Shown here one piece after another: positions 19,337 to 49,395 of a stretch of DNA of 49,476 bases; the stretch's first letter is position 1; each line of letters starts with the position of its first letter. Made by a program: the position numbers and the translations under genes. The notes below the pieces were generated by a model. The model made no database searches and was not told the DNA's origin. It was given only the letters and a program-made list of their open reading frames with translations. Origin of the DNA: Euryarchaeota archaeon UBA549 (GTDB taxonomy: Archaea > Thermoplasmatota > Poseidoniia > Poseidoniales > Poseidoniaceae); contig DAGF01000091.1 of NCBI GenBank assembly GCA_002495645.1, positions 1-49,476 on the forward strand, in the 5' to 3' direction.

Positions 19337-19425
19337 GGCATTACCAAAACGACACTGTTCAAGAGACTTCGGGCAACCCGACTCCTTCTTCTTTGGCTTT
19401 GGATTCAACCTAGTGCCCTCAGCGA

Positions 19426-20879: not shown

Positions 20880-21614
20880 TCATCCGAAGAGCAGAAAGTA
20901 CCCGACGCCAAAGACCACCACGTCGCAGATGGCGTGGGTGATGTAGGGAATCCAAATGCTCCGATAACGCACGTAGAGCCAACTGAAGGCGGCGCCCCCA
21001 ACGAAAAGACCGAGGCAAGCCAAAAGGTTCGCCGTGAGCGAAAATCCGAGGAACCACAGGGCAAAGAAATGGTGGACAACGAACATGAGAGCAGATGCGA
21101 AAATGGTCGGCCAGCCCGGGCCAAAAACAACCTCGCCTTTCTCGACGAGGAACCAACGGAACACGTATTCCTCTAACACCGAATTTCCAACCGTCCAGAA
21201 CACGGCGGCGGCAATGTAGGTGTTGACATCGGTCAAGCCAAAGGGTTCGAGCGTCGCTCGGAATGTTTGCTGGTCTAGGCGCGACTCGCCGATGAACAAC
21301 CATGCCAGCACCATGACGACGGCAAAGACGAGTCCGATGGCGGTCGCTGCGCCATAGCCACCGTTTCGAACCGGCGACCACGACCATGATTTTCGGTCCA
21401 CGCTCAGATGCCACCACAATGGCAGGCCAAGCATCCAAGCCTTGGAGAGCAACCAAACGAGTTGTCCAACCAAACCTTCACCTGTACCAAACGAGGCCAG
21501 AATCGAAGCGGTGGGAGCTAGCCCAACCAGGAGGAAGGCAAGCAAAGCTCGTCGCTTTTCCAACACTTCACGCACCCCAATCCGTGTCAAGGCCCGTCCA
21601 ACCGGAGGTGTCAT
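20880..21614 (-). CDS. CPBP family intramembrane glutamic endopeptidase (CAAX protease/Abi-like)
   Basis: Motifs EEYVFRWF (EExxxR), FVVHHFF (FxxxH) and ITHAICD, in a multi-TM protein. The track ORF runs to 21977, but that part overlaps the upstream gene's tail in another frame. Candidate starts are ATG 21635, ATG 21614 and GTG 21575. All of them overlap the stop (21568..21570) of the upstream surface protein gene. Confidence 0.75.
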   Translation of the reverse strand: MTPPVGRALTRIGVREVLEKRRALLAFLLVGLAPTASILASFGTGEGLVGQLVWLLSKAWMLGLPLWWHLSVDRKSWSWSPVRNGGYGAATAIGLVFAVVMVLAWLFIGESRLDQQTFRATLEPFGLTDVNTYIAAAVFWTVGNSVLEEYVFRWFLVEKGEVVFGPGWPTIFASALMFVVHHFFALWFLGFSLTANLLACLGLFVGGAAFSWLYVRYRSIWIPYITHAICDVVVFGVGYFLLFG

Positions 21615-24546: not shown

Positions 24547-24613
24547 CGGGGTTTGTAAGCCCTTTCCCACGATACGACACAAGCATGATAGCCTCATGTC
24601 CTCTGTTTGAGGC

Positions 24614-25360
24614 ATGGCCGTCGACCGAATGCAGTGGGGGGCCGAGGCGTGGCAGTACGCTGACCTTTACATGCCCGATGACCCCTCACCGTTCCAAAAA
24701 GACGAGGGCATCCCCTGCATCATGCTCATTCACGGTGGGTTTTGGAAGCAGCAGTACACGCTTGAGTTGATGCAACCCATCGCTGAAGACTTGGCGGAAG
24801 CCGGTGTGGCTGCTTGGAACATCGAATTCAAGCGGTGGGCACCGGGTGATGAAGGCGTTTGGATGGACACCCTTTCTGATGTTCTCAGAGCGTGGGGTCA
24901 ACTCGCCCTCCTTCCCGGCATCGACATCGCCCGCTCCATGGTGATGGGACACTCGGCGGGGGGCCAACTTGCGTTGTTGATGAGCGCGAAGGCCGAGCGA
25001 AGACCTTGGTTGGCCATTGCTCAAGCCCCCTTATCGGACCTCATTGGTGCTGACCACGCCCGCCTATCGGATGAGGGCGATGCCGTACGGCGCTGGATTG
25101 GTTGTGCACCCGAAGCCAACGAAACGCTCTGGCGGCAACTCAATCCTGTCGACCACCCACCGACCACGAGCGTGTTGCTGTTCCACGGCGAAGAGGACGA
25201 AGATGTGCCCGTTGAACAGTCCGAAACATATGCGAGGGTGATGAAGGCCAAGGGCGCTGACGTGCAGAAAGTTTGGCTTCCCGGCAATCACTACGACATC
25301 ATCGATGTGGCCTCCGACGATTGGCTGGTGCAACTCAACACCATCCTCGACTGGTTGTGA
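24614..25360 (+). CDS. alpha/beta hydrolase (esterase / arylformamidase-like)
   Basis: Oxyanion motif HGGFW. Nucleophile elbow GHSAGGQLAL. Later acidic (EEDEDVP) and His (GNHYD) candidates could complete the triad. 248 aa. Confidence 0.8.
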   Translation: MAVDRMQWGAEAWQYADLYMPDDPSPFQKDEGIPCIMLIHGGFWKQQYTLELMQPIAEDLAEAGVAAWNIEFKRWAPGDEGVWMDTLSDVLRAWGQLALLPGIDIARSMVMGHSAGGQLALLMSAKAERRPWLAIAQAPLSDLIGADHARLSDEGDAVRRWIGCAPEANETLWRQLNPVDHPPTTSVLLFHGEEDEDVPVEQSETYARVMKAKGADVQKVWLPGNHYDIIDVASDDWLVQLNTILDWL

Positions 25361-37590: not shown

Positions 37591-40194
37591 TTACTCATGA
37601 CGAATCCATTCGCCATCGGAGGTTACTTCCCAATACTGCAGTTCTTCTGAAACATCGACATACCAGCCAGTTTGTCCTTGAACGGTCGAGGGCGTAGCCT
37701 GCATGACGCCGACCTTTCCTGCCTCTTCAGCGAGCGCTTTCATCGATTCAAGCGTCAAGCCGTGGCGCTCGTGAAGCGGGGTGTCGTCAACCACTTCTGA
37801 TGAATGACCAACCTCTTCCTCCTCGTCGTCCTCATCTTCATCAAAGGTCTCTTCCATCCATTCATCCTCGGAGGCCTGAGCTGCCTCTGCAGCCTTTCGG
37901 GTCAGCGTGACCAAGACGGCCAAGAGCAGGAAGAGAAGAACCGCAGCCATGGTCATGGCGGTGTTGGTTGAACCCACTGCACCTCCCAGAAGAACATCAT
38001 CAACATCGTAGAACGTTTGTGCGAGCAGGCCACTCCACCGAATGGTGCAAGAGCGGTCGGTTCCACCGTTTTCGATGTCAACTTCCCAGGTGCCGTTGGT
38101 CACAAAGGAGGCGGGCCCTGACGTGCAGGTAACGCTGGTGTTTTCTTTGGGAATGCTGAGCGTGTTTCCATAGGCGTCGGTTGCAAAGGCGTTCATCAAC
38201 ACAACATCGCCCTCAGCGATGGAGTCTCGGCTCATCGAAGCCTGAATCCGAATGGGCGCGCCTGCCTCAATCGTTAATGGAATGGTGTGCGAGGCACCCT
38301 CATCTTCGAGAATTAATTCGTAAGAACCCACCTTCTTGCCGGTGAATTGCCAATAACCAAGGCCCGTGGGAGAAACGTCCAACTCTCCAAGCGAAGCATT
38401 GAGCATCGTGGTAACCGACGTGGACTCGGCGATGTTGCCGTGAATATCGACCACCTGTATGAAAAGGTCGTGGGGCAGGCCAGCGTTGACGACCAAGCCC
38501 TCATCGGCATCGGTGACAAGTGCGTGCGCATCTCCGGTGACCACCGTCAAGCGAACCGTTGCAAACACACCGTCAGCGTTGACCCGAAGCTCATGACCTC
38601 CGACGGTGGTGGCCGTCCAACGTCCGTCGTTCAACAGCATGTCAAGCGTGATGTCCTTGCCGTCCAATGTCCAATTGAGTGCAACATCGCCGAGTTCGTT
38701 TCCATAAGCATCAAAAAACGCTGGATTGAGAGCCAACTCACCGTCGGCAGGAACTTGACTTCCTTCACCGTCCAAATTGATGAAGGCGAGGCGACCTGGA
38801 CGAACATCAAACGCGGCATCGGTGGCAAACATGGCCCCCGTCGTGTTGTCAAACCAGCTTCCATCAAACCGCCACGATATTGCACGCTGTGCTTGAAGCA
38901 AAACAAAGGAAGGGTCCGGTGTCAACTCGGCTTCATCTCCCATGGTCATGGCGATGGTCCCGTCCACAACCCAGCGGTTTCCTTTCACATCCTCCGCCAT
39001 GAGTTCAAGAACGACTTGATCGCCAGCGGCGGGTTCCCGTGGTGTAATTTGGAAGCCGATGTCAATCGCTCGGCCGTGCTCCACATCGAGTGTCAATGAA
39101 CTGCTCACGGTACCGTCAACACCGGTAATGACCGCAGGCCCAGTGGCTGAAGGATTCCAAAACACCCGTGCATCGTCGTCAACCGACAAGCCACCAGAAG
39201 AAGCCGTGAGAGCATGGATGGAGGGTGAGACAAAGCCGATGTAGCCGTTGGCATCGCGGCGTTCAAACACCAACTCGTAGGATTCGCCTGCCATGAACAT
39301 CTCTGGTGTGTCAACCACCATCAGTTCCGATGCAACAGCATCACCCGGAATCACATGAAGCGTGGTGCTGCCCGTGATGTTTCCAGCGGACACGGTGATG
39401 AGCCAATCACCGGTGTTGGTCGCGAGGTATTCCCCCTGTGCGTTAAACGAGCCGTTTTCGGCGAACCAAGCCAGGGAACCCACCGTGGACAACGGCATTT
39501 CATAGCCGTTGATATCGACAAGATGTGGCGTGATTTTTTCGATGGTTCCTGCACGAACCATCAGCGGGTCATCGAAAACAAATTCGTGAGGCGCACCTGC
39601 TGCGACCGTGATGGTAGCACGTGTTTCCAACTGGTTGTACCTCACTCGGACATCGTAATCTCCGATGGACTCTGCTGCCCATGTGGGTTGCCCGTGGCCG
39701 ATGTATTCGCCATTGATGTCCCAAACCATGGACGCTGCGCCAGGCATACGGTTGCCTCTGGCGTCGAGCAGGTCAGCGGTCATCGTCGTTGATTCGAGAA
39801 CACCTACGTTGAGGCGAGTGATTTCAATCGAGGTGGGGACGCCGGCTTCAACCGTGATGTTGTGGTATCCCCGAAGGCCATCGTGCTCGGCGATGATTTC
39901 CACCAAACCGGCGGACCATGGATAGAACAAACCGTCTTCCGTGATGCTGCCGTTACTTGTCGACCAACTGATTTCACCTGAAACGAGGTTGTTGACAGGG
40001 TCGTAAATCAGGGCTTCAAACGAGACGACTTCATCAGCGGACATGGAGGCAGGTGGGTCATCGATGACGACCCTGTCGGCTGTCCCTGTACGCTGAATAA
40101 CGGGCTTCTCGTCCAAGAGGGTCGGTACGTTCGTGGACAGCGTCCCCAGGAGAACGAGCGCAACGAGAGCAACGCACGTTTTCGGGAAATTCAT
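37591..40194 (-). CDS. surface protein D: signal anchor, about 7-8 Big_2-like Ig domains, C-terminal TM, acidic tract, Trp-rich C-terminal module
   Basis: 867 aa. MNFPKTCVALVALVLLGTLS. Domain boundaries of the type ITVEAGVPTSIEI, ITVAAGAPHEFVF, LHVIPGDAVASEL, LDVEHGRAIDIGF, LTVVTGDAHALV, LTIEAGAPIRIQ. TM AAVLLFLLLAVLVTLT followed by RK. Tail: EDEWMEETFDEDEDDEEEE...TGWYVDVSEELQYWEVTSDGEWIRHE. Confidence 0.85.
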   Translation of the reverse strand: MNFPKTCVALVALVLLGTLSTNVPTLLDEKPVIQRTGTADRVVIDDPPASMSADEVVSFEALIYDPVNNLVSGEISWSTSNGSITEDGLFYPWSAGLVEIIAEHDGLRGYHNITVEAGVPTSIEITRLNVGVLESTTMTADLLDARGNRMPGAASMVWDINGEYIGHGQPTWAAESIGDYDVRVRYNQLETRATITVAAGAPHEFVFDDPLMVRAGTIEKITPHLVDINGYEMPLSTVGSLAWFAENGSFNAQGEYLATNTGDWLITVSAGNITGSTTLHVIPGDAVASELMVVDTPEMFMAGESYELVFERRDANGYIGFVSPSIHALTASSGGLSVDDDARVFWNPSATGPAVITGVDGTVSSSLTLDVEHGRAIDIGFQITPREPAAGDQVVLELMAEDVKGNRWVVDGTIAMTMGDEAELTPDPSFVLLQAQRAISWRFDGSWFDNTTGAMFATDAAFDVRPGRLAFINLDGEGSQVPADGELALNPAFFDAYGNELGDVALNWTLDGKDITLDMLLNDGRWTATTVGGHELRVNADGVFATVRLTVVTGDAHALVTDADEGLVVNAGLPHDLFIQVVDIHGNIAESTSVTTMLNASLGELDVSPTGLGYWQFTGKKVGSYELILEDEGASHTIPLTIEAGAPIRIQASMSRDSIAEGDVVLMNAFATDAYGNTLSIPKENTSVTCTSGPASFVTNGTWEVDIENGGTDRSCTIRWSGLLAQTFYDVDDVLLGGAVGSTNTAMTMAAVLLFLLLAVLVTLTRKAAEAAQASEDEWMEETFDEDEDDEEEEVGHSSEVVDDTPLHERHGLTLESMKALAEEAGKVGVMQATPSTVQGQTGWYVDVSEELQYWEVTSDGEWIRHE

Positions 40195-40206
40195 TCTACC
40201 ACGTCC

Positions 40207-43200
40207 TCAATCCGTGTACTCTTGCCACTCTTCCTCGCCAGGATTACGGTACCACCAGGTACCGTCTTCGTCTTCCCACCATTCCACGCCGTCTTCGTCA
40301 AAGGTGGTTTCGAGTTCCTCCTCGACCTCCTCATCCTCGGCAGGTGCTTCTTCGGGTGGTGGACCAGATGGACCGGGTGCAGGACCGGATGGACCGGGAG
40401 CGGGGCCGGTTGGGCCGGGAGCAGGACCTGTTGGACCTGGCGCAGGGCCGGTTGGACCGGAGGGGCGTTCGTCGTCGTCGTCATCGTCGTAGTCGTCATC
40501 GTCCCAGTCGTCGCTGCCGCCGCTGTTTCGCATGAACATGACACCGAGCACCAAGAGAACGATGGCCACGAGTGCAAGCAAACCAGCACCAACATAGTAC
40601 AGTGTTCCACCTGCTTCAAAGAAGCCTTGGAAGTTGCCGATGACGGTTATTTCTTCGTTGACGCGAACGGCGCCAACACTGACCGTGATGGTTTGCGGTC
40701 CATCGTCAAGCGTGGTGACGGTCCAAAGGTCGGAGGAGGTCATCGACGATGTTCCACGACCTGTGGATTCAACCTGGACACTGCCTGGAACGGGGATCTC
40801 GTTGTCAAAGGCGTCGAAGGCTCGGATGGCGACCTCAAGGCTGGCAAGTTGCTCAAGGCTATCGGTTGAGAGGTTGACCTCCAAGCGGGCCACAGTGTTC
40901 TGAGCTGAAACCGTAATTTCAGCGGTTGAAACAGCACCGCCCACGCTGTATTGGAGCGTGTGGACGCCAGCCACTTCGGCATCGTAGGTGTAGGTTCCCT
41001 CCGATGAGGTGATGATGCTCAAGGTTGGAACGCTTGCTCCGTCTTCGGTCCATTCCACGTCTTGCGGGAATTGGTTCCCATCAGCGTCCGTTCCCGTCAC
41101 TTGAATGTCAACTCGGTCACCAGCGGTCGGGCTGGTGGTCGAGAGGTCTGCTGCCACCGTGACAGCTTCACCGTGCAGCACCGTGATGGAGACACTATCC
41201 GAGATGTTGAAGCCCGTTCCGCTGATGCTGTAGGCATCAATTCGCCATTCACCGACCGTGGTCGCTTCCCAGCGCATGCCATCAAGCAACAACTGCGTCG
41301 TGATGTCCTGAACATCGCCGGTTGCTACGTTGACCTCAAGCCAAGTCAATTCGTCCGAGGAGATTCGGTTGTTGTCCGTGTCAAAGAGTTCCGAAGTGAA
41401 GTCAACCGCGAAATCTGAGGTCACCTCAATGAGAGCACCCGTTGAACGAAGTGGGTCGTTGGCCACAGCTTCGATGGTGACGGTGTTGAGCATACCGTGG
41501 TCGACGGTGATGTTGATGGAGACGCTGAGGTCGGTGTTTTCGTCACTGTAGGTTGCCGTTAGCGTGTATGGCAAATCAGAGGCGTAGTAGGGTGTGAAGG
41601 TGGTGGCGTCGCCGGTCAAGACCTCAAGGAAATTCGAAGCATCGCTGATGGTCGGGTGGTCAAGCGACCAGTTGGATTCTGGAACCGCCCACTGATTGCC
41701 TTTGGCATCGATGGCGAAGATCTTCGCTTCCAGCGTATCGTCAGCCGTGATGTCAAAGTGTTGCCAGGTGGCAATCTCATCATCCACCGTAATGCGGAGC
41801 GTTTGGGTTTGGCCACGAGAAACATCGATGACAATTTGCGTCAATTCGGTCTCATACCGTGCTTCAAGAATCTTGGATCCGGTCTTCACCGGGTCCCATG
41901 TGGCTGGCGCACCGGGCGTCAACTGCCCGTCCGATGTCTTCGTCCAATTATCGGCTGGCAAAACGACGGTCAAACGATTTCCGCGCACGTCAACCCGCGT
42001 GGTGTTGATGTAAACGCGGTCATCAGCAGTGATGGACGTCGAAGAGGCGTTCAGTTCAAGGTAATCGATAGCGCCGTGTCCAACGGTGATTTGGAGTTCG
42101 TCCATGGCTCCTGAAGCAGATGTGAGATTCAACCACCAAACGCCGACATGGTCTGGGAAGTACTTCTGGTCAATTTCCGAGTAGTTTCCGTTGGTGGTGC
42201 TCCATGTCAGGTCTCCAGCGTCGGCGATGTCCAAAGCGTTGCCGAACTGGTCGTACAAATCGATGCTGATGTCGCACCATACGCCGGCAGGCACCGTGCC
42301 TTCGCATCCACCCAATACGAAGTAAGATGGAACACCGGCTTCGACCGTAACCGCCACATCCACAAACTCACCCGAAGGCACGTTGTGAGCCACACGGACA
42401 ACGTGTGAACCGACAGCGTAAGGCTGGAAGATGTTGGGCACAACAGCGCTCATGCTACCGTTGGTCGGGGTATAGGTGATCGGCTCGCCGGGCACCATAT
42501 TGCCGTGCTGGTCAACCATGTTGGCCGTGATAGTCAAGGTCTCGTCAGCCGTGATGGTCGCCGAGAGCGGCGTTACAACGAGTTCAGTTGCGGCACCGGG
42601 CGTGACCGTGATGTTTTGATGGCCGCAGACCAGACCGAAGCAGGAGGTGATGGTCGTGACACCAGCCGTGTTTGGCGTGAACAACCCGTTGCTCCCGATG
42701 TTTCCGGAAGAGGACGACCACGTCATCGGCGGGGATTGAACCATGGAGAGATGGTCGTACGCCACGGAGTTGAAGTTCACAGCAGTATCTGCATCGGTGG
42801 TTGTTGTGCCGCCAGATGAACTGATGGCCACGCTGGTGATGTTGGTCGTGTTGAACAGGATTTGTGGCCTGTAGTTGACGTTGGTTGCCGTACCGGAGTA
42901 GAACGTTGCATGGGCATAGCCGTTGTTATTGGGCGTTCCAATGATGACCCAAGCCTGCTGGTTGGAGATGGTCATGCCAGCGGTGCTGACATCGAACCAA
43001 ACCCATCCTGTGGTGTCAACATTCACCACGGTTGTCGATACGGCGTCGCCATAATCCACGCCCGCCTGCATACCGGGAGCACCCCATGTTCCGCCTGCTG
43101 TGGTGCCGTTCCAGGTGGCAGAGGCAGCGCCCCAGTTGGCATTGGTGATGGGGTGGACGTTGAACGCAACCGATGTTGCTCCCTGAACCGAAGTCCACGA

Positions 43201-46200
43201 TTCAACGTACATTCCAAGCGAAGCAGAATGCACTTGCTGATATTGTGCGAACGGCACTTGACCAGCGTTCAAGGCCACATTGATGCGGCATTCGTCACCG
43301 TAGAGGGTGCCACAGAAGGTTCCCGCACTGATGGTCTGCTCACCGGCAAAATTGGTGTTCGCATATTCGCTGTAGACGGCCGTGTCTTGCACGTTGGTGT
43401 GGCCAAAGGCGGCGATTTCACTGCCGGTTTGGAAGCGGTACGTGTAGGTGTAATCGTTGTTGAAGGTGTGGTCGGGGTCGCCGACGGCGAAACTCCAGCG
43501 CGAAGAGGAGGGGCCTGGGATGGACTGATTCACGCCTTGAACCCACCAGGAGAAGAGTTGCCCCTCGGTCAAGTTGTCCGAGAATCGGAAGGTGGTGTTG
43601 GTGATTTCAGAATCTTCCCACGAGCGGAATTTGTACACACCGCTCTCGTTTGCGATGGTGACAATGTACCCCGTTGCACCGCTCACCGGCGTCCATGTCA
43701 AGACGGGTTGGGTCGAGGGGGTGAGCAAACCGTCAGCCTCGGCGTAGAGCACTTGGCCGTCCGCAGGCGAGGTCAGCATGGGCTGTCCGGGAGGAACAAT
43801 GCCGTTGACGTTGTCAACGTAATCCAGCACCAGGTGGGGGTGATAGGCGTCGTCCGAATGTTCGGAGGAGTAGAAACTGTGGGAGGACCCTGTGCTTCCA
43901 ATCATCGCCAGCATGAACGTCATGGTGGTGTTGCCGTTGGCGATGTTGCTTTGTGCCAAGCTGGTCAAATCCCATTCCACCCATCCGAAGGGGTTGTTCA
44001 AGGTCAGGGTTGAACGGGTGATTTCGGTGGTTGAACAGGTTGGGGCCGTGGCCCACACAACACTGGATTCGGTAAAACCACTGCAAGCGTAAGCTGCAAT
44101 CGTGGTTGACGATGTTCCCGAAACGCCGGGCTGGTACATTCGCAGCATCATTTGCGTGGGGGTCATCGCAGAGGGCCATGGGATGTTGCTGAGGTCGAAT
44201 TCCATGAGAATGCGACTTTGTCCCGTGCCCAAACCGTTGACGCCGAGGACCATGGTGTTGGAACCGCCTCGGTTCACCGTTGCGTTGGAATCAATTTCAA
44301 CGTCCTCCACCATCGGCAATTGACCCGTGTAGTCAAAGATCGAGCCACGAGACAGGTTCAGCGTGTGATTCCCGTTGCCGTCATCGCTGCCCTGATCTTC
44401 AGGAACGCGATACTTGTTGACGGAGGACCACTCGCCGATGCGGTCGCCCTGGTCGGCTCTAACGCGCCAGTAGATCCAGAAATCCCCCTTGGAGAGGTTG
44501 GTATTGCTGTACGTGTTGTTGAGGAAGTCGAACGTGTCGTTGCCGTAGAGTCCCGCCATGATTTCGTCGTGCGTCCAACAGGTGGTGATTTCTTCGTTGA
44601 GGAACAAAGGATCGCCACCGCCACATGCTGCGATTTGGGTGTGGTTGCTGTAGGTGAGGTTGAAGGTGAAATCAGTGCTGTTGAGCCCCGACGGACGAGG
44701 CGTGGAAGTGTTCCAGAGGGTGATGCCGTCCAGGGGTGTGAGTCCGGTGGGTTGCGATGGCACCCATGCCTCGACGATGCGATAGGTCAGGTTGAGGCGT
44801 GGCCGAACGTCGATGTTCGAGGCTTCGCTTGAGGCAAATTGAACGCGCCCGTCTACGCCGGTTTCGAGTTCAACGGGGAAGAGCACGATGTCCAGTTCCG
44901 CCATGTTGTTCTTCAAAGCGTGCTGAACATAGGCTGTAACGTTAAACGCGGCGGTGCCGGTCTCGTTGACCCATTGCGCTGCGTTGAATGGGATATCGGA
45001 GTCTCTTATGGTGAATCCACCCGTTTGAGCCCACGATGAGGTGTTGCCCGCTGGGTAGGCGTAAACCGAGGATTCGCTCCATTGGGAGGTCATCTCCGAG
45101 ACCGCAATGAGCGTGGACTGGTAGGCGTTCACCACGGTGAATTCCAAACTGGCGTTCACCACTTCGTAGGTCCCGGGCATTGGAAGGGCACTGAAATTCA
45201 TGTTCATGAGCGACATTGAGCGGAGGTTGGGGTTGCTCGTGGACACTTGGCTGCGACCGACATAAAGACTTGAGGATGAACCGCGGTTGGTGTAGATGGA
45301 GCCCGTGTCAAGGTAGGTGTCTTGGGTGACGCTCGGATAGGAGAGCGACGCTACAATCGACCCTTCCTGGATGGAGAGGTTGGCATGGGTGCTGTTGATT
45401 TCCTGACCGACATCGTTTGGCAGGTAGAAACTTGTGGATGCACTTCGGGGACCAAGCATACCGTTGTTGATGGGTTGAACCATCCAGCGAATCTCCTGAG
45501 CGAACGTCAAATCTGATGAGGGCGTAAAGGTCAGGTTGGTGGTGTCAAAGTCTGAGGGGGTGGTGCGTGAATCGTACGTGAACAAGCCCGCCATGTCGTC
45601 GTTAGCATCGGTTTGGATGAAGACTCGCCAGTCAGAAACTGCGGTCGCCCCGCTGTAGGTCCATGAGAAGGTCGGGGAACGGTCGGCTTGGAGTGCATGG
45701 GAGGCCGCGTCCCAAACGATGGAACCGCTGGTCGGCGCGCTGTTCACGCCGCTCACGGTCGGGGTTGCGACGGTTCCGTCTTCCCATGTCAGCGTGAGGT
45801 AGGGGCGCTCGCTGGCGCTGCCCTCAGTGGAGGTGAAGATGATTTCATCCGTGGTCTGTGAAGAGGTGTAAACCATCAACGAGACAAAATTCTGGCTGTT
45901 GGCAAGTGCACCTTGAACAGCCTCGGTGACATCGAAATCCATCCAATCATCTTCCACACTGTCAACGAGATCAACATAGCTGCCGACGTCAACACCGATG
46001 TCGCGACCGCCACGCTCAGACCAGGTGTTGGTGCCGTCGTACGTGGTGGCGTTGGCCGAAGTCGTCCAAGGTTGGAGAACGGGACGGATAGCGACGGGCT
46101 CATCCTCTGGCGAACCGTATTCTGCAAACAAACTCAACTCCGCCCCGGTGACGCGTGCGCCCGAGGGTTGTGGGACTTCAGCGAGCGGAATTCGAATGAG

Positions 46201-49200
46201 AGCAGCGGATTGGTAGCCCGTGGACTGCTCACCGACACGAAGTGTCGTGGCGTTTTCATGGGTGTCATCGGAGCCCGAACCGTTCTCGATGACATAGGTG
46301 TCAACCAAGTGAGGCGTATTCAAGTGGGGAAGTGCGCCATGGTGTCGCAGTTCAACGGAAGCCTTGGTGGAATTGAAGACCACCGTGTTCAAGTCAGGAA
46401 GTTGGAAATGATAGGACGACGACCAGTTTCCAATTTGGTTGGTCGCTGATACGGCACGTACCCGCCAATACCATGTTTTCCCATCGTCAAGGTCGGACTG
46501 CAACGTAAAGGAGGTGTTGGTCACATCAAAACCTGCATCGTTCCAAGAGGTGTAGGTGAGGCTGTTGACCGATGAGAAGTCACTTTGGGTGTCGAGTTGG
46601 ACGATGTAGCCGGCCAGCGCCATTGAACCAGCGAAGTTCCAAACCAGTTCGGGTTGGGCGATGGGCGTCAAATCAACGCCGGCTCCGATGGACCACGAAC
46701 CGTTGAGTGGGAGGGATGGCGCTGGGTCGGAGGGCAAAGCATCCGAACCAGGGACGTAAACAAAGGAGAGTTCAGGGCGATTCGCCATGGAATCTTCGGC
46801 CGTGCTGAAATAAGCGGTTCGAGCGCCGCCGGAACCTGCACCCAACATGCCTGCGATGAAGTCCACTCGGCGGTCTTCGCGCATGGCGTTTTGAACCGCA
46901 AGAGTGACGTTCCATTCCACGCTGTCTCCTTCAAAGAAGGAGTTGCCCACGCTCACGCTGTCCAGAAGAGAGCCACGTTCGGCACCCTTTGCACCGGCGG
47001 TGTCCCACGCGTTGGAACCGTCATAACTTGCCCACGTGGCGTCCTCGGCGTTCCAATCGTGTTCACTGCTCTCCCAAACGGCGATGGTCGGGCTGCCAAA
47101 GGTCGTGGATGTCAAGGTCATTGACAAGTGGGCAGATTCCACAGCGTAGCCGTTGGGCAACAAATTGGACACGAGGTTACATCCCAGAAGGGCGGTGATT
47201 TCGCCGCCCGACGGGTTGTAATCAATGGTCATCTCCGAGTCGCCGTCAAAGTTGTCGGTTGATGCAGCGCTGTCGATGTAGGTGTCCATGCAGGCAGGGT
47301 ATTGATTGTCTTGCGAACCGTTGCCGTGCTTCATTCTGAACTCGTGGCGGTCGCCACCCAACCATGTGCTTTCGGCGGAGGAAACGAGGAAACTGGAGCT
47401 GACCCATTCACCGTAGTGGTCGTCGCTGTCCACTGTGGCCATGCGCCAGAAGTACATGTTGCCGACTTCGAGGGTCTTGGCCCCGGTCATCGGAAGGGTG
47501 CCGTCGGAGGGACTGAAATCGCTGTCAACACGGGTGTCAACGCGCAATTCACGCAGACGGAAGTCCTCGTCGGTGGCCAGTTCAAACAGGATGTCATCGC
47601 CGGTGGAAGGGCTCGTCCAATTCAACGATGGCTGCGTGTTGCCGGAGAGGTTGTGGCCGGTTTGATTCCAAATGGCCAAGCCCTCGGCAGGTGCGGTCAG
47701 GTTGACCGAAGTGGGCGGCGTGCCGCTGCCCCACTCGTAGGTGAGCGAGAACGACGGGGTATCGCTGGGGTTCGAGGCTTCAGCCGAATGGAATTGAATC
47801 CCTTCACCGTTGGTGTAGGATTCGTACTTACCACGGACCGCAATCAGCATGTCCAACGGTGCATCGTCGCCCCCATCAAGGTAGTTTTGGACCGCGTGGT
47901 CGAGGTCGAAGGTAAAGCTGGAACTGGTTTGATTGCCGTCAGCGAGAGCGAAGGCAGCCGTGCCGTTAGAACGACCCCCATCGTACCAAGAGAAGCCGTT
48001 GGTGGACATCCGGTTCCAGGTGATGCCGTCCTCGGTCCAAAGGCCAGATTCTTCCATACCGTGAATCGAGATCATCGGGTCGCCGGTGTAGGAGGAGCGC
48101 GTCAACTTCATCTCAGCGTTCACGATGGTCAAGTTGTCGTGCAGTCCGAGTTGATTCAACGAGGCCCTGAAGTGAATCAAGCGTTCTTTGCTTGACGTCA
48201 TGCTGGCCTCGAGGGTGGAGGCGTCGCCGTACGTGATCGTTTTGCTGGTCTCACTGACGGTGGCGTCCTGAAGGAAATTCGATTCCAGACCGGTATCGGT
48301 GGGGCCGAAGGTCATGGTGGCGGTGCCGTCCCCGTTATCCACCACATTGTGCGTTGGGAGCATGAAACTGGTGCTGTCCCAAGGACCCCACTGGTCGTTG
48401 CTGTCAACGGCTCGAATGCGCATGTGCATCGTGGTTCCGTTCACCAAGGCGAGGGAAGAAGGGAGGTCATAAGCGCCGGATGTGCCCGTTGAAGCGAAGG
48501 TGGACCACAACGTCGAGAAGTGCCATGCTTCGTCGCTTTCAGAGCGCCAATCGGCGTCGTTGCTCAATTGAATCTCAACGTCCGTTCCGGTGTTCTGGTC
48601 GTAGGAGAGGGTTGGCGTGGTGACGGCTTGGAGCAGGAAATCCGCTTTCATCCAAGGCGCACCGTCCTCCACAGGAAGGTCGGTGGAAACGGTTGCACCG
48701 CTGGTCGCAGCGGTGTTGTTCGTGGTGTCCATCGTGAGTTGAGGGCGGTTGGAGGCGCTCAGTGCTTCGGACATGCCGCAATCATAACTGGCACCAAACG
48801 ACGAGACGACAAGCGAGAGGTTGCCCGCGTTGCTCTTCGCAGCATCCTGCGCCAGAGCGGTGACGTTCAGGGTCAAGGTTCCGTTGCCCGTTAGCGTGGT
48901 GGGAGGCTCCCATTCGCCACGGTCAGCTGCGCCTTCAGCACCTGCCGTCGACCACAGTTGGCCGTTGTCATAGGCCACCCAAGAGGCGTGCGAACCGTTC
49001 CACAAACGATCCATTGTTGCCACATAGGCCGTCAATTCGGCAGGCCCAAGAACATCGGTTGTGCACTGCAGAGCAACGCTGGCCTCGTGAACCGTGTCGC
49101 TTGATGTGAAGTTCATCGGGAATCGAAGCAACAATCTGGACGCTTGGCCAACACCGTCAGCAAGGGTCCCTGAGACCGAGGTGTTGAAGGTCGACGACGG

Positions 49201-49395
49201 AGAGGCGGCCGAGATGTAGGTATCAGCGTTCGCTGAATGGTAGGAAACGGCCCGCTGCACGGTGTTTTCATCTTCCAACTCAGACCAACCTTCCATGGTT
49301 TGAGGCAGGGAAAGGTCAGCGAAGATAAACATCAAAACGAGCAAAAGCGCGGTGGCTTGGGGACGAAGGATTCGTACGCTACGCATGGGACTCAT
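40207..49395 (-). CDS. giant (3062 aa) surface protein G: signal peptide, 7 x (CBM/DNRLRE-like + FN3-like) super-repeat, about 8 Big_2-like Ig domains, TM, acidic and Pro-rich tail with WW-like C-terminus
   Basis: Single uninterrupted ORF. N-terminus MSPMRSVRILRPQATALLLVLMFIFADL, with an alternative ATG at 49386. See the repeat features below. TM LYYVGAGLLALVAIVLLVLGVMFM followed by R. 107-aa tail. Confidence 0.9.
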   Translation of the reverse strand: MSPMRSVRILRPQATALLLVLMFIFADLSLPQTMEGWSELEDENTVQRAVSYHSANADTYISAASPSSTFNTSVSGTLADGVGQASRLLLRFPMNFTSSDTVHEASVALQCTTDVLGPAELTAYVATMDRLWNGSHASWVAYDNGQLWSTAGAEGAADRGEWEPPTTLTGNGTLTLNVTALAQDAAKSNAGNLSLVVSSFGASYDCGMSEALSASNRPQLTMDTTNNTAATSGATVSTDLPVEDGAPWMKADFLLQAVTTPTLSYDQNTGTDVEIQLSNDADWRSESDEAWHFSTLWSTFASTGTSGAYDLPSSLALVNGTTMHMRIRAVDSNDQWGPWDSTSFMLPTHNVVDNGDGTATMTFGPTDTGLESNFLQDATVSETSKTITYGDASTLEASMTSSKERLIHFRASLNQLGLHDNLTIVNAEMKLTRSSYTGDPMISIHGMEESGLWTEDGITWNRMSTNGFSWYDGGRSNGTAAFALADGNQTSSSFTFDLDHAVQNYLDGGDDAPLDMLIAVRGKYESYTNGEGIQFHSAEASNPSDTPSFSLTYEWGSGTPPTSVNLTAPAEGLAIWNQTGHNLSGNTQPSLNWTSPSTGDDILFELATDEDFRLRELRVDTRVDSDFSPSDGTLPMTGAKTLEVGNMYFWRMATVDSDDHYGEWVSSSFLVSSAESTWLGGDRHEFRMKHGNGSQDNQYPACMDTYIDSAASTDNFDGDSEMTIDYNPSGGEITALLGCNLVSNLLPNGYAVESAHLSMTLTSTTFGSPTIAVWESSEHDWNAEDATWASYDGSNAWDTAGAKGAERGSLLDSVSVGNSFFEGDSVEWNVTLAVQNAMREDRRVDFIAGMLGAGSGGARTAYFSTAEDSMANRPELSFVYVPGSDALPSDPAPSLPLNGSWSIGAGVDLTPIAQPELVWNFAGSMALAGYIVQLDTQSDFSSVNSLTYTSWNDAGFDVTNTSFTLQSDLDDGKTWYWRVRAVSATNQIGNWSSSYHFQLPDLNTVVFNSTKASVELRHHGALPHLNTPHLVDTYVIENGSGSDDTHENATTLRVGEQSTGYQSAALIRIPLAEVPQPSGARVTGAELSLFAEYGSPEDEPVAIRPVLQPWTTSANATTYDGTNTWSERGGRDIGVDVGSYVDLVDSVEDDWMDFDVTEAVQGALANSQNFVSLMVYTSSQTTDEIIFTSTEGSASERPYLTLTWEDGTVATPTVSGVNSAPTSGSIVWDAASHALQADRSPTFSWTYSGATAVSDWRVFIQTDANDDMAGLFTYDSRTTPSDFDTTNLTFTPSSDLTFAQEIRWMVQPINNGMLGPRSASTSFYLPNDVGQEINSTHANLSIQEGSIVASLSYPSVTQDTYLDTGSIYTNRGSSSSLYVGRSQVSTSNPNLRSMSLMNMNFSALPMPGTYEVVNASLEFTVVNAYQSTLIAVSEMTSQWSESSVYAYPAGNTSSWAQTGGFTIRDSDIPFNAAQWVNETGTAAFNVTAYVQHALKNNMAELDIVLFPVELETGVDGRVQFASSEASNIDVRPRLNLTYRIVEAWVPSQPTGLTPLDGITLWNTSTPRPSGLNSTDFTFNLTYSNHTQIAACGGGDPLFLNEEITTCWTHDEIMAGLYGNDTFDFLNNTYSNTNLSKGDFWIYWRVRADQGDRIGEWSSVNKYRVPEDQGSDDGNGNHTLNLSRGSIFDYTGQLPMVEDVEIDSNATVNRGGSNTMVLGVNGLGTGQSRILMEFDLSNIPWPSAMTPTQMMLRMYQPGVSGTSSTTIAAYACSGFTESSVVWATAPTCSTTEITRSTLTLNNPFGWVEWDLTSLAQSNIANGNTTMTFMLAMIGSTGSSHSFYSSEHSDDAYHPHLVLDYVDNVNGIVPPGQPMLTSPADGQVLYAEADGLLTPSTQPVLTWTPVSGATGYIVTIANESGVYKFRSWEDSEITNTTFRFSDNLTEGQLFSWWVQGVNQSIPGPSSSRWSFAVGDPDHTFNNDYTYTYRFQTGSEIAAFGHTNVQDTAVYSEYANTNFAGEQTISAGTFCGTLYGDECRINVALNAGQVPFAQYQQVHSASLGMYVESWTSVQGATSVAFNVHPITNANWGAASATWNGTTAGGTWGAPGMQAGVDYGDAVSTTVVNVDTTGWVWFDVSTAGMTISNQQAWVIIGTPNNNGYAHATFYSGTATNVNYRPQILFNTTNITSVAISSSGGTTTTDADTAVNFNSVAYDHLSMVQSPPMTWSSSSGNIGSNGLFTPNTAGVTTITSCFGLVCGHQNITVTPGAATELVVTPLSATITADETLTITANMVDQHGNMVPGEPITYTPTNGSMSAVVPNIFQPYAVGSHVVRVAHNVPSGEFVDVAVTVEAGVPSYFVLGGCEGTVPAGVWCDISIDLYDQFGNALDIADAGDLTWSTTNGNYSEIDQKYFPDHVGVWWLNLTSASGAMDELQITVGHGAIDYLELNASSTSITADDRVYINTTRVDVRGNRLTVVLPADNWTKTSDGQLTPGAPATWDPVKTGSKILEARYETELTQIVIDVSRGQTQTLRITVDDEIATWQHFDITADDTLEAKIFAIDAKGNQWAVPESNWSLDHPTISDASNFLEVLTGDATTFTPYYASDLPYTLTATYSDENTDLSVSINITVDHGMLNTVTIEAVANDPLRSTGALIEVTSDFAVDFTSELFDTDNNRISSDELTWLEVNVATGDVQDITTQLLLDGMRWEATTVGEWRIDAYSISGTGFNISDSVSITVLHGEAVTVAADLSTTSPTAGDRVDIQVTGTDADGNQFPQDVEWTEDGASVPTLSIITSSEGTYTYDAEVAGVHTLQYSVGGAVSTAEITVSAQNTVARLEVNLSTDSLEQLASLEVAIRAFDAFDNEIPVPGSVQVESTGRGTSSMTSSDLWTVTTLDDGPQTITVSVGAVRVNEEITVIGNFQGFFEAGGTLYYVGAGLLALVAIVLLVLGVMFMRNSGGSDDWDDDDYDDDDDDERPSGPTGPAPGPTGPAPGPTGPAPGPSGPAPGPSGPPPEEAPAEDEEVEEELETTFDEDGVEWWEDEDGTWWYRNPGEEEWQEYTD
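40361..40465 (-). repeat. five imperfect 21-nt tandem repeats encoding (GPTGPAP)x5
   Basis: Plus-strand units: ggaccagatggaccgggtgca / ggaccggatggaccgggagcg / gggccggttgggccgggagca / ggacctgttggacctggcgca / gggccggttggaccggagggg. They encode PSGPTGPAPGPTGPAPGPTGPAPGPSGPAPGPSGPPP in the cytoplasmic tail of protein G. Confidence 0.85.
42847..49257 (-). repeat. seven-fold coding super-repeat of about 327 aa (about 980 nt) in protein G
   Basis: Module starts are at about aa 47, 375, 700, 1028, 1355, 1693 and 2000. Each module ends with an RP.L-type strand: SNRPQLTMD, SDTPSFSLTYEW, ANRPELSFVYV, SERPYLTLTWE, DVRPRLNLTYRI, AYHPHLVLDYV, NYRPQILFNT. In five of the seven units an FN3-like module with an aromatic W..V/A strand follows (YFWRMATVD, WYWRVRAVS, IRWMVQPIN, IYWRVRADQ, FSWWVQGVN); MHMRIRAVD after unit 1 may be a diverged copy. 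Confidence 0.75.

What the first reader, a model, noticed from the sequence alone, without database searches (positions are those of the whole stretch)
37594..40602. Shared long cytoplasmic tail with a Trp-rich WW/DUF2510-like terminal module on giant type-I surface proteins; no known archaeal anchor signal
Proteins D and G are adjacent genes 12 nt apart on the same strand. Both end with one TM helix followed immediately by Arg/Lys (positive-inside, so the tail is cytoplasmic) and then a tail of about 100 aa. The D tail is RKAAEAAQASEDEWMEETFDEDEDDEEEE...TGWYVDVSEELQYWEVTSDGEWIRHE. The G tail is RNSGGSDDWDDDDYDDDDDDE-(GPTGPAP)x5-...EELETTFDEDGVEWWEDEDGTWWYRNPGEEEWQEYTD. They share the ETFDED acidic box and a terminal module with W...G..[WY][WY].....(G)EEW spacing. 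That spacing recalls WW domains (W-x-G-x-YY-x-N-x6-W) and the GWY.D....YWDG..W DUF2510 motif. Protein A (10932..11003) ends LPAGWTMEQWTYYGQQYLDQ and protein C (21571..21606) ends SGWTGLDTDWGA. Known archaeal surface-anchor signals (PGF-CTERM, PEF-CTERM) are a TM plus a few basic residues at the extreme C-terminus. These tails are long, structured and conserved among paralogs. That suggests an intracellular docking, sorting or signalling module that couples giant adhesins to something inside the cell.
Basis: partly seen in the sequence, partly recalled or inferred. Interest (0 to 1): 0.78.

Follow-up and report, generated by a model that had tools for sequence, protein, structure and literature searches.

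The report
Portable cytoplasmic tail caps on archaeal surface proteins
Two adjacent giant surface proteins of a marine Group II archaeon end, inside the cell, in long acidic tails capped by two different small, conserved, previously uncatalogued domains that are reused on many other surface proteins, which suggests an unrecognised way of coupling the archaeal cell surface to the cell interior.

Summary
The window comes from a Poseidonia-like Marine Group II archaeon. Each has a signal peptide, a large glycosylatable ectodomain, one TM helix, then Arg/Lys and about 100 residues.

The claimed homology fails. The D and G terminal modules show no profile-profile similarity. Neither matches WW, DUF2510 or any Pfam, NCBIfam or PDB entry.

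Each module is nevertheless a real, strongly conserved and portable domain.
All of these are Poseidoniales, and they span several ectodomain families.
- Its only other relatives are repeats in eukaryotic IQ-motif and PH-domain proteins that lack a TM.
- The G-type cap (DGTEW..D..GTWWYR......W, a predicted four-strand Trp-rich beta-meander) also ends other anchored proteins. It also ends a roughly 230-aa protein with no TM and no signal peptide.
- G orthologs in another lineage carry the D-type cap and have no D gene.

What the two tails truly share is their architecture: a juxtamembrane acidic-aromatic box, a variable spacer and a folded cap.

The most likely function is cytoplasmic docking or clustering. 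This is inferred, not shown.

The parts
37591..40194 (-). Gene D: 867-aa type I membrane protein with Ig-like ectodomain. It is a paralog of the membrane-proximal stalk of G.
   Evidence: ORF and translation. BLASTP of D against G residues 2206-2893 gives E 2e-28. 104 orthologs in Poseidonia and Poseidoniaceae.
40120..40194 (-). D N-terminal signal-peptide-like segment (MNFPKTCVALVALVLLGTLSTNVPT).
   Evidence: Direct reading.
37900..37959 (-). D single transmembrane helix (AMTMAAVLLFLLLAVLVTLT), followed by RK.
   Evidence: Kyte-Doolittle scan. Coordinates verified. 81% identity across orthologs.
37810..37899 (-). D juxtamembrane acidic-aromatic box (RKAAEAAQASEDEWMEETFDEDEDDEEEEV).
   Evidence: W-x3-4-[FY] inside an acidic run in 99 of 101 D orthologs. 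The same kind of box is found in 71% of 75 tails of both cap types.
37744..37809 (-). D variable linker.
   Evidence: Least conserved part of the protein. The linker segment measured (residues 796-812) shows 13% identity in distant orthologs.
37594..37743 (-). D-type C-terminal cap domain (MKALAEEAGKVGVMQATPSTVQGQTGWYVDVSEELQYWEVTSDGEWIRHE). Predicted as a helix plus a short strand plus a three-strand beta-meander.
   Evidence: Alignments A1 and A3. AF2 pLDDT 80.7, but only 1 of 5 models is confident. Exhaustive profile search gives 179 representatives. The motif starts 38-48 aa (mostly 39) before the stop in nearly all of the 119 ORFs carrying it, all Poseidoniales.
40207..49395 (-). Gene G: 3062-aa giant type I surface protein with 7 DNRLRE/CBM96 domains and an Ig-like stalk.
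   Evidence: Synteny RFC-G-D is conserved in three distant contigs.
40531..40596 (-). G single transmembrane helix (YVGAGLLALVAIVLLVLGVMFM), followed by R.
40465..40530 (-). G juxtamembrane acidic-aromatic box (RNSGGSDDWDDDDYDDDDDDER).
   Evidence: Conserved in G orthologs. Encoded by a 3-nt/15-nt repeat tract.
40354..40464 (-). G Pro-rich spacer, (GP[ST]GPAP)x5, encoded by a 21-nt tandem repeat.
   Evidence: TRF finds period 21 and 5.1 copies. The repeat is present in most G orthologs examined, in a variable number of units.
40210..40308 (-). G-type C-terminal cap domain (TTFDEDGVEWWEDEDGTWWYRNPGEEEWQEYTD). Predicted as a four-strand Trp-rich beta-meander.
   Evidence: Alignment A2. AF2 pLDDT 79.6, with all five models at 77-80 and the core above 90. 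Every genuine match in the 119 metagenome loci starts 27-31 aa before the stop. tblastn with the C-terminus of the TM-less 230-aa protein gives E 4e-11.

Best explanation
D and G are type I (N-out, C-in) surface proteins of a Poseidoniales archaeon.

Their cytoplasmic tails share one tripartite design:
1. A juxtamembrane Arg/Lys followed by a strongly acidic run with embedded Trp/Tyr/Phe.
2. A poorly conserved, low-complexity spacer. In G this is a variable-copy GPxGPAP repeat.
3. A small folded 'cap' domain at the exact C-terminus.

There are two unrelated cap families. The D-type cap is about 50 aa: a helix plus a beta-meander, with the motif A..GVMxA..GTxQGxxGWYxD....YWxV...GxW. The G-type cap is about 33 aa: a four-strand Trp-rich beta-meander, with the motif DGTEW..D..GTWWYR......W.

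Both caps are portable cassettes. Each is attached to several unrelated ectodomain families. G orthologs carry either type depending on lineage.

The caps most likely act as cytoplasmic protein-protein docking or oligomerisation modules. They would tether or cluster surface adhesins and enzymes to one another or to a shared intracellular partner. One candidate partner is the TM-less 230-aa protein that ends in the same G-type cap.

Shown here: the anatomy, conservation, modularity, exact C-terminal position, and relatives in proteins without a TM or signal peptide. Inferred: the docking or clustering function and the identity of the partner.
For: **Topology**
- D and G each have a signal-like N-terminus, a single TM followed by R/K, and an ectodomain of Ig-like and CBM96/DNRLRE domains.
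- The G ectodomain has 62 N-x-S/T sequons and its tail has none. D has 9 and 0.
- The D-type cap's only non-archaeal relatives are repeats in TM-less proteins carrying IQ motifs (Pfam IQ, E 8.8e-22) and a PH domain (E 5.9e-14). One of these sits on a contig beside Rpn3/PCI, Kelch, WD40-CDC20 and TB2/DP1 genes, so it is eukaryotic.
- The G-type cap also ends a conserved 230-aa protein with no signal peptide and no TM, found at 29 loci.
- A third surface protein in the window (B, 15335..19408) ends in TM, then an acidic run, then a zinc ribbon.

**Constraint**
- The cap is the most conserved region of D, and the linker the least.

**Modularity and position**
- The D-type motif starts 38-48 aa (mostly 39) before the stop in nearly all 119 ORFs carrying it (one N-containing read-through ORF and one 3'-truncated ORF are the exceptions). 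A TM lies 51-235 aa upstream in all but a few short or 5'-truncated ORFs. Carriers are families of roughly 870, 1100-1160, 1230-1260 and more than 2600 aa.
- The exhaustive search adds G-like giants of 3040 aa and a 2738-aa subtilase-like giant.
- Every genuine G-type match starts 27-31 aa before the stop. Carriers include G orthologs, TM-anchored proteins of 1130-1540 aa (among them TSP3-repeat proteins), and an FG-GAP-like protein.

**Swapping**
- G orthologs in the same RFC-adjacent position carry a D-type cap and have no D gene next to them.
- D itself is a partial duplicate of the G stalk.
Against: - No partner was identified and no interaction was tested.
- The two caps are not homologous, so equivalent function rests only on their shared position and on swapping.
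- The D-type structure prediction is confident in only 1 of 5 models.
- Foldseek gives no significant match for either cap, so the fold gives no functional lead.
- Topology was inferred from the signal peptide plus a single TM plus sequon bias. No dedicated predictor was run.
- The gene neighbourhood of the 230-aa protein (S15 peptidase, JAB-like, DUF1499) gives no functional link to surface proteins.
Confidence: 0.55

Rival explanations
1. The caps are biogenesis, sorting or quality-control tags rather than docking modules. A folded C-terminal cytoplasmic domain would be recognised by a dedicated machine, such as a targeting factor, a membrane protease like LonB, or a localisation system. That machine would handle a regulon of very large surface proteins. 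This would be analogous in logic to C-terminal sorting domains such as the T9SS CTD, but read from the cytoplasmic side.
For: - The strict extreme C-terminal position, at a constant distance to the stop codon, is typical of terminal recognition tags.
- The cap is portable across unrelated cargo.
- The same cargo accepts either tag.
Against: - The G-type cap also ends a small soluble protein that needs no membrane sorting.
- D-type relatives occur as internal tandem repeats in eukaryotic cytosolic proteins, which does not fit a terminal tag.
- No conserved candidate machine is linked to the D/G locus in the four loci compared.
Confidence: 0.2
2. The tail is a passive anchor-stabilising device. 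The acidic juxtamembrane run plus a folded Trp-rich 'stopper' would lock the single TM of a very large ectodomain in the membrane. It would prevent slippage or shedding, or it would associate with the membrane interface. No specific partner would be involved.
For: - The acidic-aromatic box directly after the TM is the one feature shared by both tail types.
- The caps are small, Trp-rich and terminal.
- Carriers are mostly large proteins of about 650 to over 3100 aa.
Against: - A passive stopper would not need about 20 invariant or near-invariant positions. It would not need homologs in soluble eukaryotic IQ proteins or a soluble carrier of the same cap.
- Spacers of 50-235 aa place the cap well away from the membrane.
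Confidence: 0.12
3. D and G (and A and C) would share one paralogous WW/DUF2510-like Trp module that binds Pro-rich ligands, as WW domains do.
For: - There is motif-level resemblance. The D-type GWYxD....YW......W recalls the DUF2510 motif as I remember it.
- Both caps are predicted beta-meanders with conserved Trp.
- Pro-rich segments exist in the tails of G, A and C as potential ligands.
- One weak Foldseek hit is the Sas-4 TCP/G-box sheet, which binds a Pro-rich motif (E 3.5-3.9).
Against: - hhalign of D against G gives a probability of about 1%.
- No WW or DUF2510 hit at E<=10 on the tails or at E<=1 on 52 D-type modules.
- No WW chain appears in three PDB profile searches.
- No WW appears among the top 50 Foldseek hits.
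- The G-type cap has four strands rather than three.
Confidence: 0.05

Closest known systems
WW domain (Pfam PF00397)
   Same: A small (30-40 aa), Trp-containing antiparallel beta-meander used as a cytoplasmic protein-protein interaction module. The two conserved Trp are about 18-20 residues apart.
   Different: No HMM, PDB-profile or Foldseek match. The G-type cap is predicted with four strands. The D-type cap has an obligatory N-terminal helix and the GVMxA..GTxQG segment. There is no conserved C-terminal Pro. Ligand binding is untested.
DUF2510 (Pfam PF10708), a small Trp/Tyr-rich module on bacterial membrane proteins (properties from my own knowledge)
   Same: Motif-level resemblance of GWYxD...(R)YWDG..W to the D-type GWYVD....QYWEV...GEW. 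Both are associated with single-pass membrane proteins.
   Different: No Pfam hit on the D tail or on 52 family members. The D-type cap has a longer second hairpin and the extra GVMxA..GTxQG half. Among prokaryotic genomes the D-type hits are restricted to Poseidoniales, plus eukaryotic relatives.
PGF-CTERM / PEF-CTERM archaeosortase signals
   Same: A C-terminal element shared by many archaeal surface proteins that includes a TM helix.
   Different: Those signals are a short motif, then a TM, then a few basic residues at the very end, and they are cleaved. Here the TM is followed by 100-290 aa ending in a conserved folded domain. No NCBIfam sorting-signal model hits D or G.
Cytoplasmic tails of eukaryotic adhesion receptors (integrins, cadherins) that dock adaptor proteins
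   Same: A type I surface adhesin, a single TM, and a conserved cytoplasmic tail used for intracellular coupling. This is the functional analogy the data best fit.
   Different: No sequence relationship. The partner is unknown. Here the docking element is a discrete terminal domain on a long acidic or Pro-rich spacer. The organism is an archaeon with no known cortical cytoskeleton linkage.
Single beta-propeller blades / fragment propellers (Pizza, Ph1500, PQQ-like repeats)
   Same: The G-type model superposes on single blades (TMq 0.57-0.60, rmsd 1.2 A over 30-32 residues). The DGT.W...G.W...G..W periodicity resembles PQQ-like repeats.
   Different: All matches are non-significant: Foldseek E of 2.2 or more, and hmmsearch E 2.4-5.4 for the PQQ-propeller chains. 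There is only one blade per protein. Oligomeric assembly is speculation.
LPD23 (Pfam PF18838, large polyvalent protein-associated domain 23)
   Same: Sub-threshold hits over the GT.QG..GWY.D segment in 5 of 52 D-type modules, and in P0260 (24.1 bits against a cutoff of 27).
   Different: The hits never reach the gathering score and cover only about 22 positions. The relationship is unproven.

Membership tests
WW domain (PF00397) | Significant match to the Pfam WW profile | tested here: not met
   hmmscan of the D and G tails at E<=10 and of 52 D-type modules at E<=1 returned no WW hit. HMMER filters may drop very weak matches.
WW domain (PF00397) | Sequence or structural similarity to solved WW domains | tested here: not met
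   hmmsearch of profiles A1, A2 and A3 against PDB returned no WW chain at E<=10. Foldseek against PDB shows no WW domain in the top 50 for either model, and all E values exceed 1.
WW domain (PF00397) | Three-stranded antiparallel sheet of about 35 aa with two signature Trp and a C-terminal Pro | tested here: inconclusive
   AF2 predicts four strands for G-type. For D-type it predicts a helix, a short strand and three strands. Conserved Trp pairs are present, but there is no conserved terminal Pro.
WW domain (PF00397) | Binds Pro-rich (PPxY-type) ligands | not testable with these tools
   Pro-rich segments exist in the tails of G, A and C. No binding test was possible.
DUF2510 (PF10708) | Significant match to the Pfam DUF2510 profile | tested here: not met
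   No hit at E<=10 on the tails or at E<=1 on 52 family members.
PGF-CTERM / PEF-CTERM archaeosortase substrates | Match to the curated sorting-signal models, with the signal (motif, TM, short basic tail) at the extreme C-terminus | tested here: not met
   NCBIfam scan of full-length D and G at E<=1 returned only DNRLRE_dom on G. The TM is followed by 102 and 107 aa.
D-type cap family (undescribed; defined here by profiles A1 and A3) | Profile match over A..GV[ML]xA..GTxQGx[ST]GWYxD....Y[WF]xV...GxW | tested here: met
   179 representatives at E<=1e-3 and 51 at E<=1e-10 among 1.84 billion proteins. Single-domain scores for eukaryotic members reach 45 bits. Near-invariant positions are G12, A16, T20, Q22, G23, G26, W27, Y28, G44 and W46.
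D-type cap family, archaeal branch | Extreme C-terminal position behind a single TM on a secreted-type protein | tested here: met
   The motif starts 38-48 aa before the stop in nearly all 119 motif-bearing ORFs (exceptions: one N-containing read-through ORF and one 3'-truncated ORF). A TM lies 51-235 aa upstream in all but a few short or 5'-truncated ORFs. Window D has its TM at residues 746-765 and the cap at residues 818-867.
G-type cap family (undescribed; defined here by profile A2) | D-x-x-G-[TV]-x-W ... W-[WYF]-[YF]-R ... W motif starting 27-31 aa before the stop | tested here: met
   All genuine motif hits in 119 metagenome loci satisfy this. The seven short spurious matches do not. 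Window G has the cap at 40210..40308.
Single beta-propeller blade (PQQ-like or fragment propeller) | Four-strand antiparallel meander that superposes on a blade; family HMM match | tested here: inconclusive
   Foldseek top hits are blades (TMq 0.57-0.60, rmsd 1.2 A) but with E of 2.2 or more. PQQ-propeller chains score E 2.4-5.4 in hmmsearch. There is no Pfam PQQ hit.
LPD23 (PF18838) | Match above the Pfam gathering score | tested here: not met
   The best score is 24.1 bits against a cutoff of 27. 5 of 52 modules hit, with best E 0.003.

The most novel reading that the evidence does not exclude
Poseidoniales would possess an adhesion-receptor-like coupling system. Diverse surface adhesins and enzymes would be wired to the cell interior through interchangeable cytoplasmic cap domains.

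The G-type cap, a single propeller-blade-like unit, would co-assemble from several tails together with the membrane-peripheral 230-aa protein. The resulting ring-like oligomer would cluster the giant proteins.

The D-type cap would be an interaction domain exchanged horizontally between these archaea and marine protists. In the protists it sits after IQ motifs in cytoskeleton-type proteins.
Probability: 0.12. Interest if true: 0.85.

Novelty: new variant of a known kind. Interest (0 to 1): 0.62.

Why it matters
Marine Group II archaea are among the most abundant surface-ocean archaea and have not been cultured. Their giant surface proteins are thought to mediate attachment to particles and algae and the degradation of polymers.

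Archaeal surface proteins are usually described as anchored by a bare C-terminal TM or by a lipid (PGF-CTERM). A family-wide, modular, conserved cytoplasmic domain on such proteins has not been catalogued: Pfam, NCBIfam and PDB all return nothing.

If the caps dock to intracellular partners, they give the first handle on three questions in these cells: how they organise their surface proteins, how they turn them over, and how they might sense through them.

The work also yields practical markers.
- Two new profile-definable domains flag C-terminally anchored surface proteins in MAGs.
- There is a candidate soluble partner family.
- There is an unexpected archaeon-protist shared domain, relevant to gene transfer between MGII and phytoplankton.

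Tried and rejected
1. Direct homology of the D and G tails. BLASTP and hhalign in four modes were negative.
2. Pfam on tails, whole proteins and 52 modules; NCBIfam; PDB profile searches. Nothing was found for the tails.
3. Foldseek against PDB for both models. There was no hit below E = 1, so the blade-like and TCP-like hits are treated only as shape descriptions.
I replaced it with hand-designed degenerate DNA patterns.
5. The word-indexed search with the G-type profile returned only ORFs of 32-80 aa. I first considered them stand-alone mini-proteins.
   - Inspection showed that most are C-terminal pieces of larger genes. Some are split by frameshifts in the Asp-codon or Pro-repeat tracts: their 'MMMTMM' N-termini are GAT/GAC read out of frame. 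Others are cut by contig ends.
   - Some of them (for example P0197, P0199, P0200 and P0203) are the C-terminal part of the genuine TM-less 230-aa family found later by the DNA scan.
6. The 'ETFDED box' as a shared element was rejected as positionally non-equivalent.
7. Orthologs of the tails of A, B and C among all fetched loci. Only the TSP3 repeats of C matched, so those tails remain unevaluated.
8. The two bacterial MAG hits (Yoonia, Salipiger) were rejected as evidence of bacterial distribution. The ORFs on them (896 and 871 aa) have the length and tail of D-family proteins, so these contigs are probably mis-binned Poseidoniales DNA.
9. The gene neighbourhood of the 230-aa protein gave no functional clue.
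10. A literature search found MGII adhesion genes discussed (thrombospondin, flotillin, archaella; PMC6461757) but nothing on these tails.


Full report
**Source and setting**

Orthologs of protein D are named Poseidonia sp., Candidatus Poseidoniaceae or Poseidoniales. The window (GC about 57%) therefore comes from a Marine Group IIa archaeon.

It carries five large minus-strand genes for secreted-type proteins, set among housekeeping genes (adenylosuccinate synthetase, LonB, Asp/Lys-type tRNA synthetase, aldehyde dehydrogenase and others).
- A: 10929..14414.
- B: 15335..19408.
- C: 21568..24615, a GDSL lipase with TSP3 repeats.
- D: 37591..40194.
- G: 40207..49395, with 7 DNRLRE/CBM96 domains and an Ig-like stalk.

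**Checking the observation**

- D has a signal-like N-terminus, a single TM (37900..37959), then RK and a 102-aa tail (37594..37899).
- G has a signal-like N-terminus, a single TM (40531..40596), then R and a 107-aa tail (40210..40530).
- G's stop codon and D's start codon are 12 nt apart.
- The order RFC small subunit, G, D is conserved on three distant Poseidoniaceae contigs.
- D's ectodomain is a paralog of G residues about 2206-2893, the membrane-proximal stalk (BLASTP E 2e-28).

**Are the tails homologous to each other?**

They are not detectably homologous.
- BLASTP of tail against tail gives E = 1.6.
- I collected 104 D orthologs (44-97% identity) and about 60 G C-termini. I built profiles of the terminal modules and compared them with hhalign in local, global, low-mact and no-realign modes. 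The probability was 0.2-1.2%.
- The 'ETFDED box' is not equivalent in the two proteins. In D it belongs to a juxtamembrane box (EW[MV]E[ED][AV]FD, with W-x3-4-[FY] in 99 of 101 orthologs). In G it is the first strand of the terminal module, and the Phe is usually Val.

What the tails really share is their architecture.
- A basic residue comes first, then an acidic run with embedded aromatics. G has DDWDDDDYDDDD.
- Over 75 tails of both kinds the mean net charge is -11.5 in 32 aa, and 71% have an aromatic inside the acidic run.
- A variable spacer follows, and then a conserved terminal module.

**Each module is real and under constraint**

- In full-length D orthologs the last 55 aa are the most conserved part of the protein. 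Identity to the window is 83%, against 69% for the ectodomain and 56% for the linker.
- In the 13 most distant orthologs the figures are 55%, 48% and 13%.
- In the 33-sequence D-module alignment (A1), 19 columns are invariant.
- G's terminal 33 aa keep D, G, W, W and W invariant across orthologs down to about 31% module identity.
- G's spacer is a GP[ST]GPAP repeat encoded by a 21-nt tandem repeat. It is present in most G orthologs examined, in a variable number of units.

**Known families**

- Pfam finds nothing on the tails even at E<=10.
- Scanning 52 diverse D-type modules at E<=1 gives only sub-threshold LPD23 (5 of 52, best E 0.003) and noise. There is no WW and no DUF2510.
- NCBIfam finds no family for the tails and no PGF-CTERM-type model on D or G.
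- Profile searches of PDB sequences with A1, A2 and A3 find no WW domain and nothing significant.

**Structure prediction**

- AlphaFold2 with the ortholog alignments predicts the G-type module as a four-strand antiparallel meander. All five models have pLDDT of 77-80, and the core exceeds 90.
- It predicts the D-type module as a helix, a short strand and a three-strand meander, with pLDDT 80.7. Only one of the five models is confident.
- Foldseek against PDB gives no hit below E = 1 for either model.
- The G-type model superposes best on single beta-propeller blades (designed Pizza proteins, PknD, Ycf48; TMq 0.57-0.60, rmsd 1.2 A). It also superposes on the single-layer TCP/G-box sheet of Sas-4. 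No WW domain is listed.
- The WW/DUF2510 idea therefore survives only as a loose resemblance in shape and motif.

**Where else the D-type module occurs**

An exhaustive HMMER search of 1.84 billion representatives with profile A1 found 179 proteins at E<=1e-3 and 51 at E<=1e-10. They fall into two classes.

Class 1 is acidic and archaeal-type (K+R 3-6%). Full-length members have a signal-like N-terminus, and members have one TM with the module at the very C-terminus. This class includes:
- D orthologs.
- Families of 1100-1260 aa, such as P0308, which is UniRef A0A075GU68, 'uncultured marine group II/III euryarchaeote'.
- A 2738-aa subtilase-like giant (P0296).
- Proteins of 3040-3043 aa that are G orthologs carrying a D-type tail (P0279 and P0286).

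Class 2 is basic (K+R 11-24%) and has no TM.
- Members carry 1-6 copies of the module, usually just after an IQ-like helix.
- Pfam finds IQ motifs (E 8.8e-22 in P0269) and a PH domain (E 5.9e-14 in P0260).
- The contig of P0259 also encodes Rpn3/PCI, Kelch, WD40-CDC20 and TB2/DP1 proteins, so it is eukaryotic.
- Single eukaryotic domains score up to 45 bits. An example is KEAGVMVAMRGTTQGKSGWYMDFDGQMYFFAVDPNGEWWQVV.

I then scanned 185,579 prokaryotic species genomes with a degenerate DNA pattern for G[VIM][LMIF]xAxxxTxQGxxGWY.
All are annotated as Poseidoniales or under older names for them, except two bacterial MAG contigs.
- The ORFs on those two contigs (896 and 871 aa) have the length and tail of D-family proteins, so they are probably mis-binned.
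- In nearly all of the 119 ORFs recovered, the motif starts 38-48 (mostly exactly 39) residues before the stop. The exceptions are one N-containing read-through ORF and one 3'-truncated ORF.
- A TM lies 51-235 residues upstream in all but a few short or 5'-truncated ORFs.

**Where else the G-type module occurs**

Seven are short spurious matches. In every genuine match the module starts 27-31 residues before the stop. Carriers are:
- Giant G orthologs of about 3040-3180 aa.
- Other TM-anchored proteins of 1130-1540 aa, including TSP3-repeat proteins related to window protein C (L157 and L202).
- An FG-GAP-like protein (L125).
- A conserved family of about 230 aa with no signal peptide and no TM, found at 29 loci. 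Its consensus is MAKKKGGFGRFLGAITGSPYERL ... IDEEEHDL ... GRDEFEEFR ... GDH ... RVF ... followed by the G-type module.

This 230-aa family has no Pfam or NCBIfam match and is not encoded in the window.

**Module swapping and origin of D**

The G orthologs with a D-type tail lie next to the RFC gene, as in the window, but have no D gene downstream. D is a partial paralog of G's stalk. Together these facts suggest the following history, which is an inference:
1. The ancestral G carried a D-type cap.
2. D arose by tandem duplication of the stalk, TM and tail.
3. G then acquired the G-type cap.

Whatever the direction, the same ectodomain family functions with either cap. This is the best evidence that the two unrelated caps play equivalent roles.

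**Topology**

Several facts place the tails in the cytoplasm.
- The ectodomains have Ig-like and CBM96 domains. G has 62 N-glycosylation sequons and D has 9, against none in either tail.
- There is only one TM after the signal peptide.
- Both caps have relatives in proteins that lack a TM and a signal peptide.
- Protein B's tail ends in a zinc ribbon (Pfam Zn_ribbon_FGT1_2, E 7e-7).

No dedicated topology predictor was available, so this remains a well-supported inference rather than a demonstration.

**Interpretation**

The shown facts are:
- the tripartite design of the tails;
- strong constraint on the caps;
- their exact C-terminal position;
- their portability across unrelated cargo;
- their interchangeability;
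- their relatives in proteins that lack a TM and a signal peptide.

These facts best fit small cytoplasmic protein-protein interaction modules that dock or cluster surface proteins. I give this about 0.55.

The alternatives are a cytoplasmically read sorting or quality-control tag (0.2) and a passive anchor stopper (0.12).

One speculative but testable idea concerns the G-type cap. As a single blade-like unit, it could co-assemble from several tails and the 230-aa protein into a ring.

**Limits**

- The confidence of the D-type model rests on one model out of five.
- The tails of A and C could not be evaluated because no orthologs were found among the fetched loci.
- A's GWTMEQWTYYGQQY does resemble the conserved WTTEQVWEWGRTQGW(S/N)DEQI motif in the tails of the 1230-1260-aa D-type family.
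- Literature searches found MGII adhesion genes discussed (PMC6461757) but nothing on these tails.

**Verdict**

The finding is two new portable cytoplasmic cap domains on Poseidoniales surface proteins. I classify it as a new variant of a known kind (tail-mediated coupling of type I surface proteins), with interest of about 0.6.

Noticed in passing
window 15335..19408 (-), tail about 15335..15570: Protein B is a 1357-aa surface protein with DUF4886 and Ig-like/NPCBM-associated domains. It ends in a hydrophobic TM-like segment (below my hydrophobicity threshold), then RRR, an acidic run (EAEEEDEAEEEEEE) and a C4 zinc ribbon (Pfam Zn_ribbon_FGT1_2, E 7e-7). This would be a third kind of cytoplasmic cap on the same tail design.
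   Followed up: partly
window 10929..11210 (-), tail of protein A; loci L017, L023, L062, L066, L093, L107: A's terminal GWTMEQWTYYGQQYLDQ resembles a conserved internal motif, WTTEQVWEWGRTQGW(S/N)DEQIAAYE. That motif sits in the roughly 216-aa tails of the 1230-1260-aa D-type-capped family. It may be a fourth recurrent tail element. Conservation in A orthologs could not be tested.
   Followed up: partly
metagenome loci L126, L127, L130, L133-L135, L143, L145 and others (29 loci): A conserved acidic protein family of about 230 aa has no TM and no signal peptide. It has a basic N-terminus (MAKKKGGFGRFLGAITGSPYERL, possibly amphipathic) and a C-terminal G-type cap. There is no Pfam or NCBIfam match. 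Frequent neighbours are an S15 X-Pro dipeptidyl peptidase and a weak JAB-like protein. It is a candidate cytoplasmic partner of G-type tails.
   Followed up: partly
proteins P0221, P0230, P0250, P0253, P0255, P0259, P0260, P0263, P0269; locus L245: The D-type cap has clear homologs as 1-6 tandem copies in eukaryotic TM-less proteins with IQ motifs, a PH domain, EF-hands or coiled coils. One sits on a contig with Rpn3, Kelch, WD40-CDC20 and TB2/DP1 genes. This suggests transfer between protists and MGII archaea.
   Followed up: partly
loci L247 (3.0-Mb contig) and L248: G orthologs in the same RFC-adjacent position carry a D-type cap and have no D gene downstream. In the window's lineage, D looks like a partial tandem duplicate of G's stalk, TM and tail.
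   Followed up: yes
window 40354..40464 and 40469..40512: G's spacer is encoded by a 21-nt tandem repeat (5.1 copies). Its acidic box is encoded by a GAY-rich 3/15-nt repeat. Repeat copy number varies between orthologs. In public assemblies these tracts often break the gene call, which produces spurious small ORFs starting 'MMMTMM...' (Asp codons read out of frame).
   Followed up: partly
loci L044 (Yoonia sp. MAG) and L046 (Salipiger bermudensis MAG): Two bacterial MAG contigs in the species-representative genome set carry ORFs (896 and 871 aa) with the length and D-type tail of D-family proteins. These are most likely mis-binned Poseidoniales contigs.
   Followed up: partly
window 21568..24615 (-); loci L157, L202: Protein C combines a GDSL lipase with many thrombospondin type 3 repeats, a TM and a 128-aa Pro-rich tail ending SGWTGLDTDWGA. 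TSP3-repeat proteins in other MGII contigs instead end in a G-type cap. C's own terminal motif was not evaluated.
   Followed up: partly
window 40195..40206: Only 12 nt (GGACGTGGTAGA) separate G's stop from D's start. A GAGG overlaps the stop codon. This is consistent with co-transcription and coupled translation of G and D.
   Followed up: no
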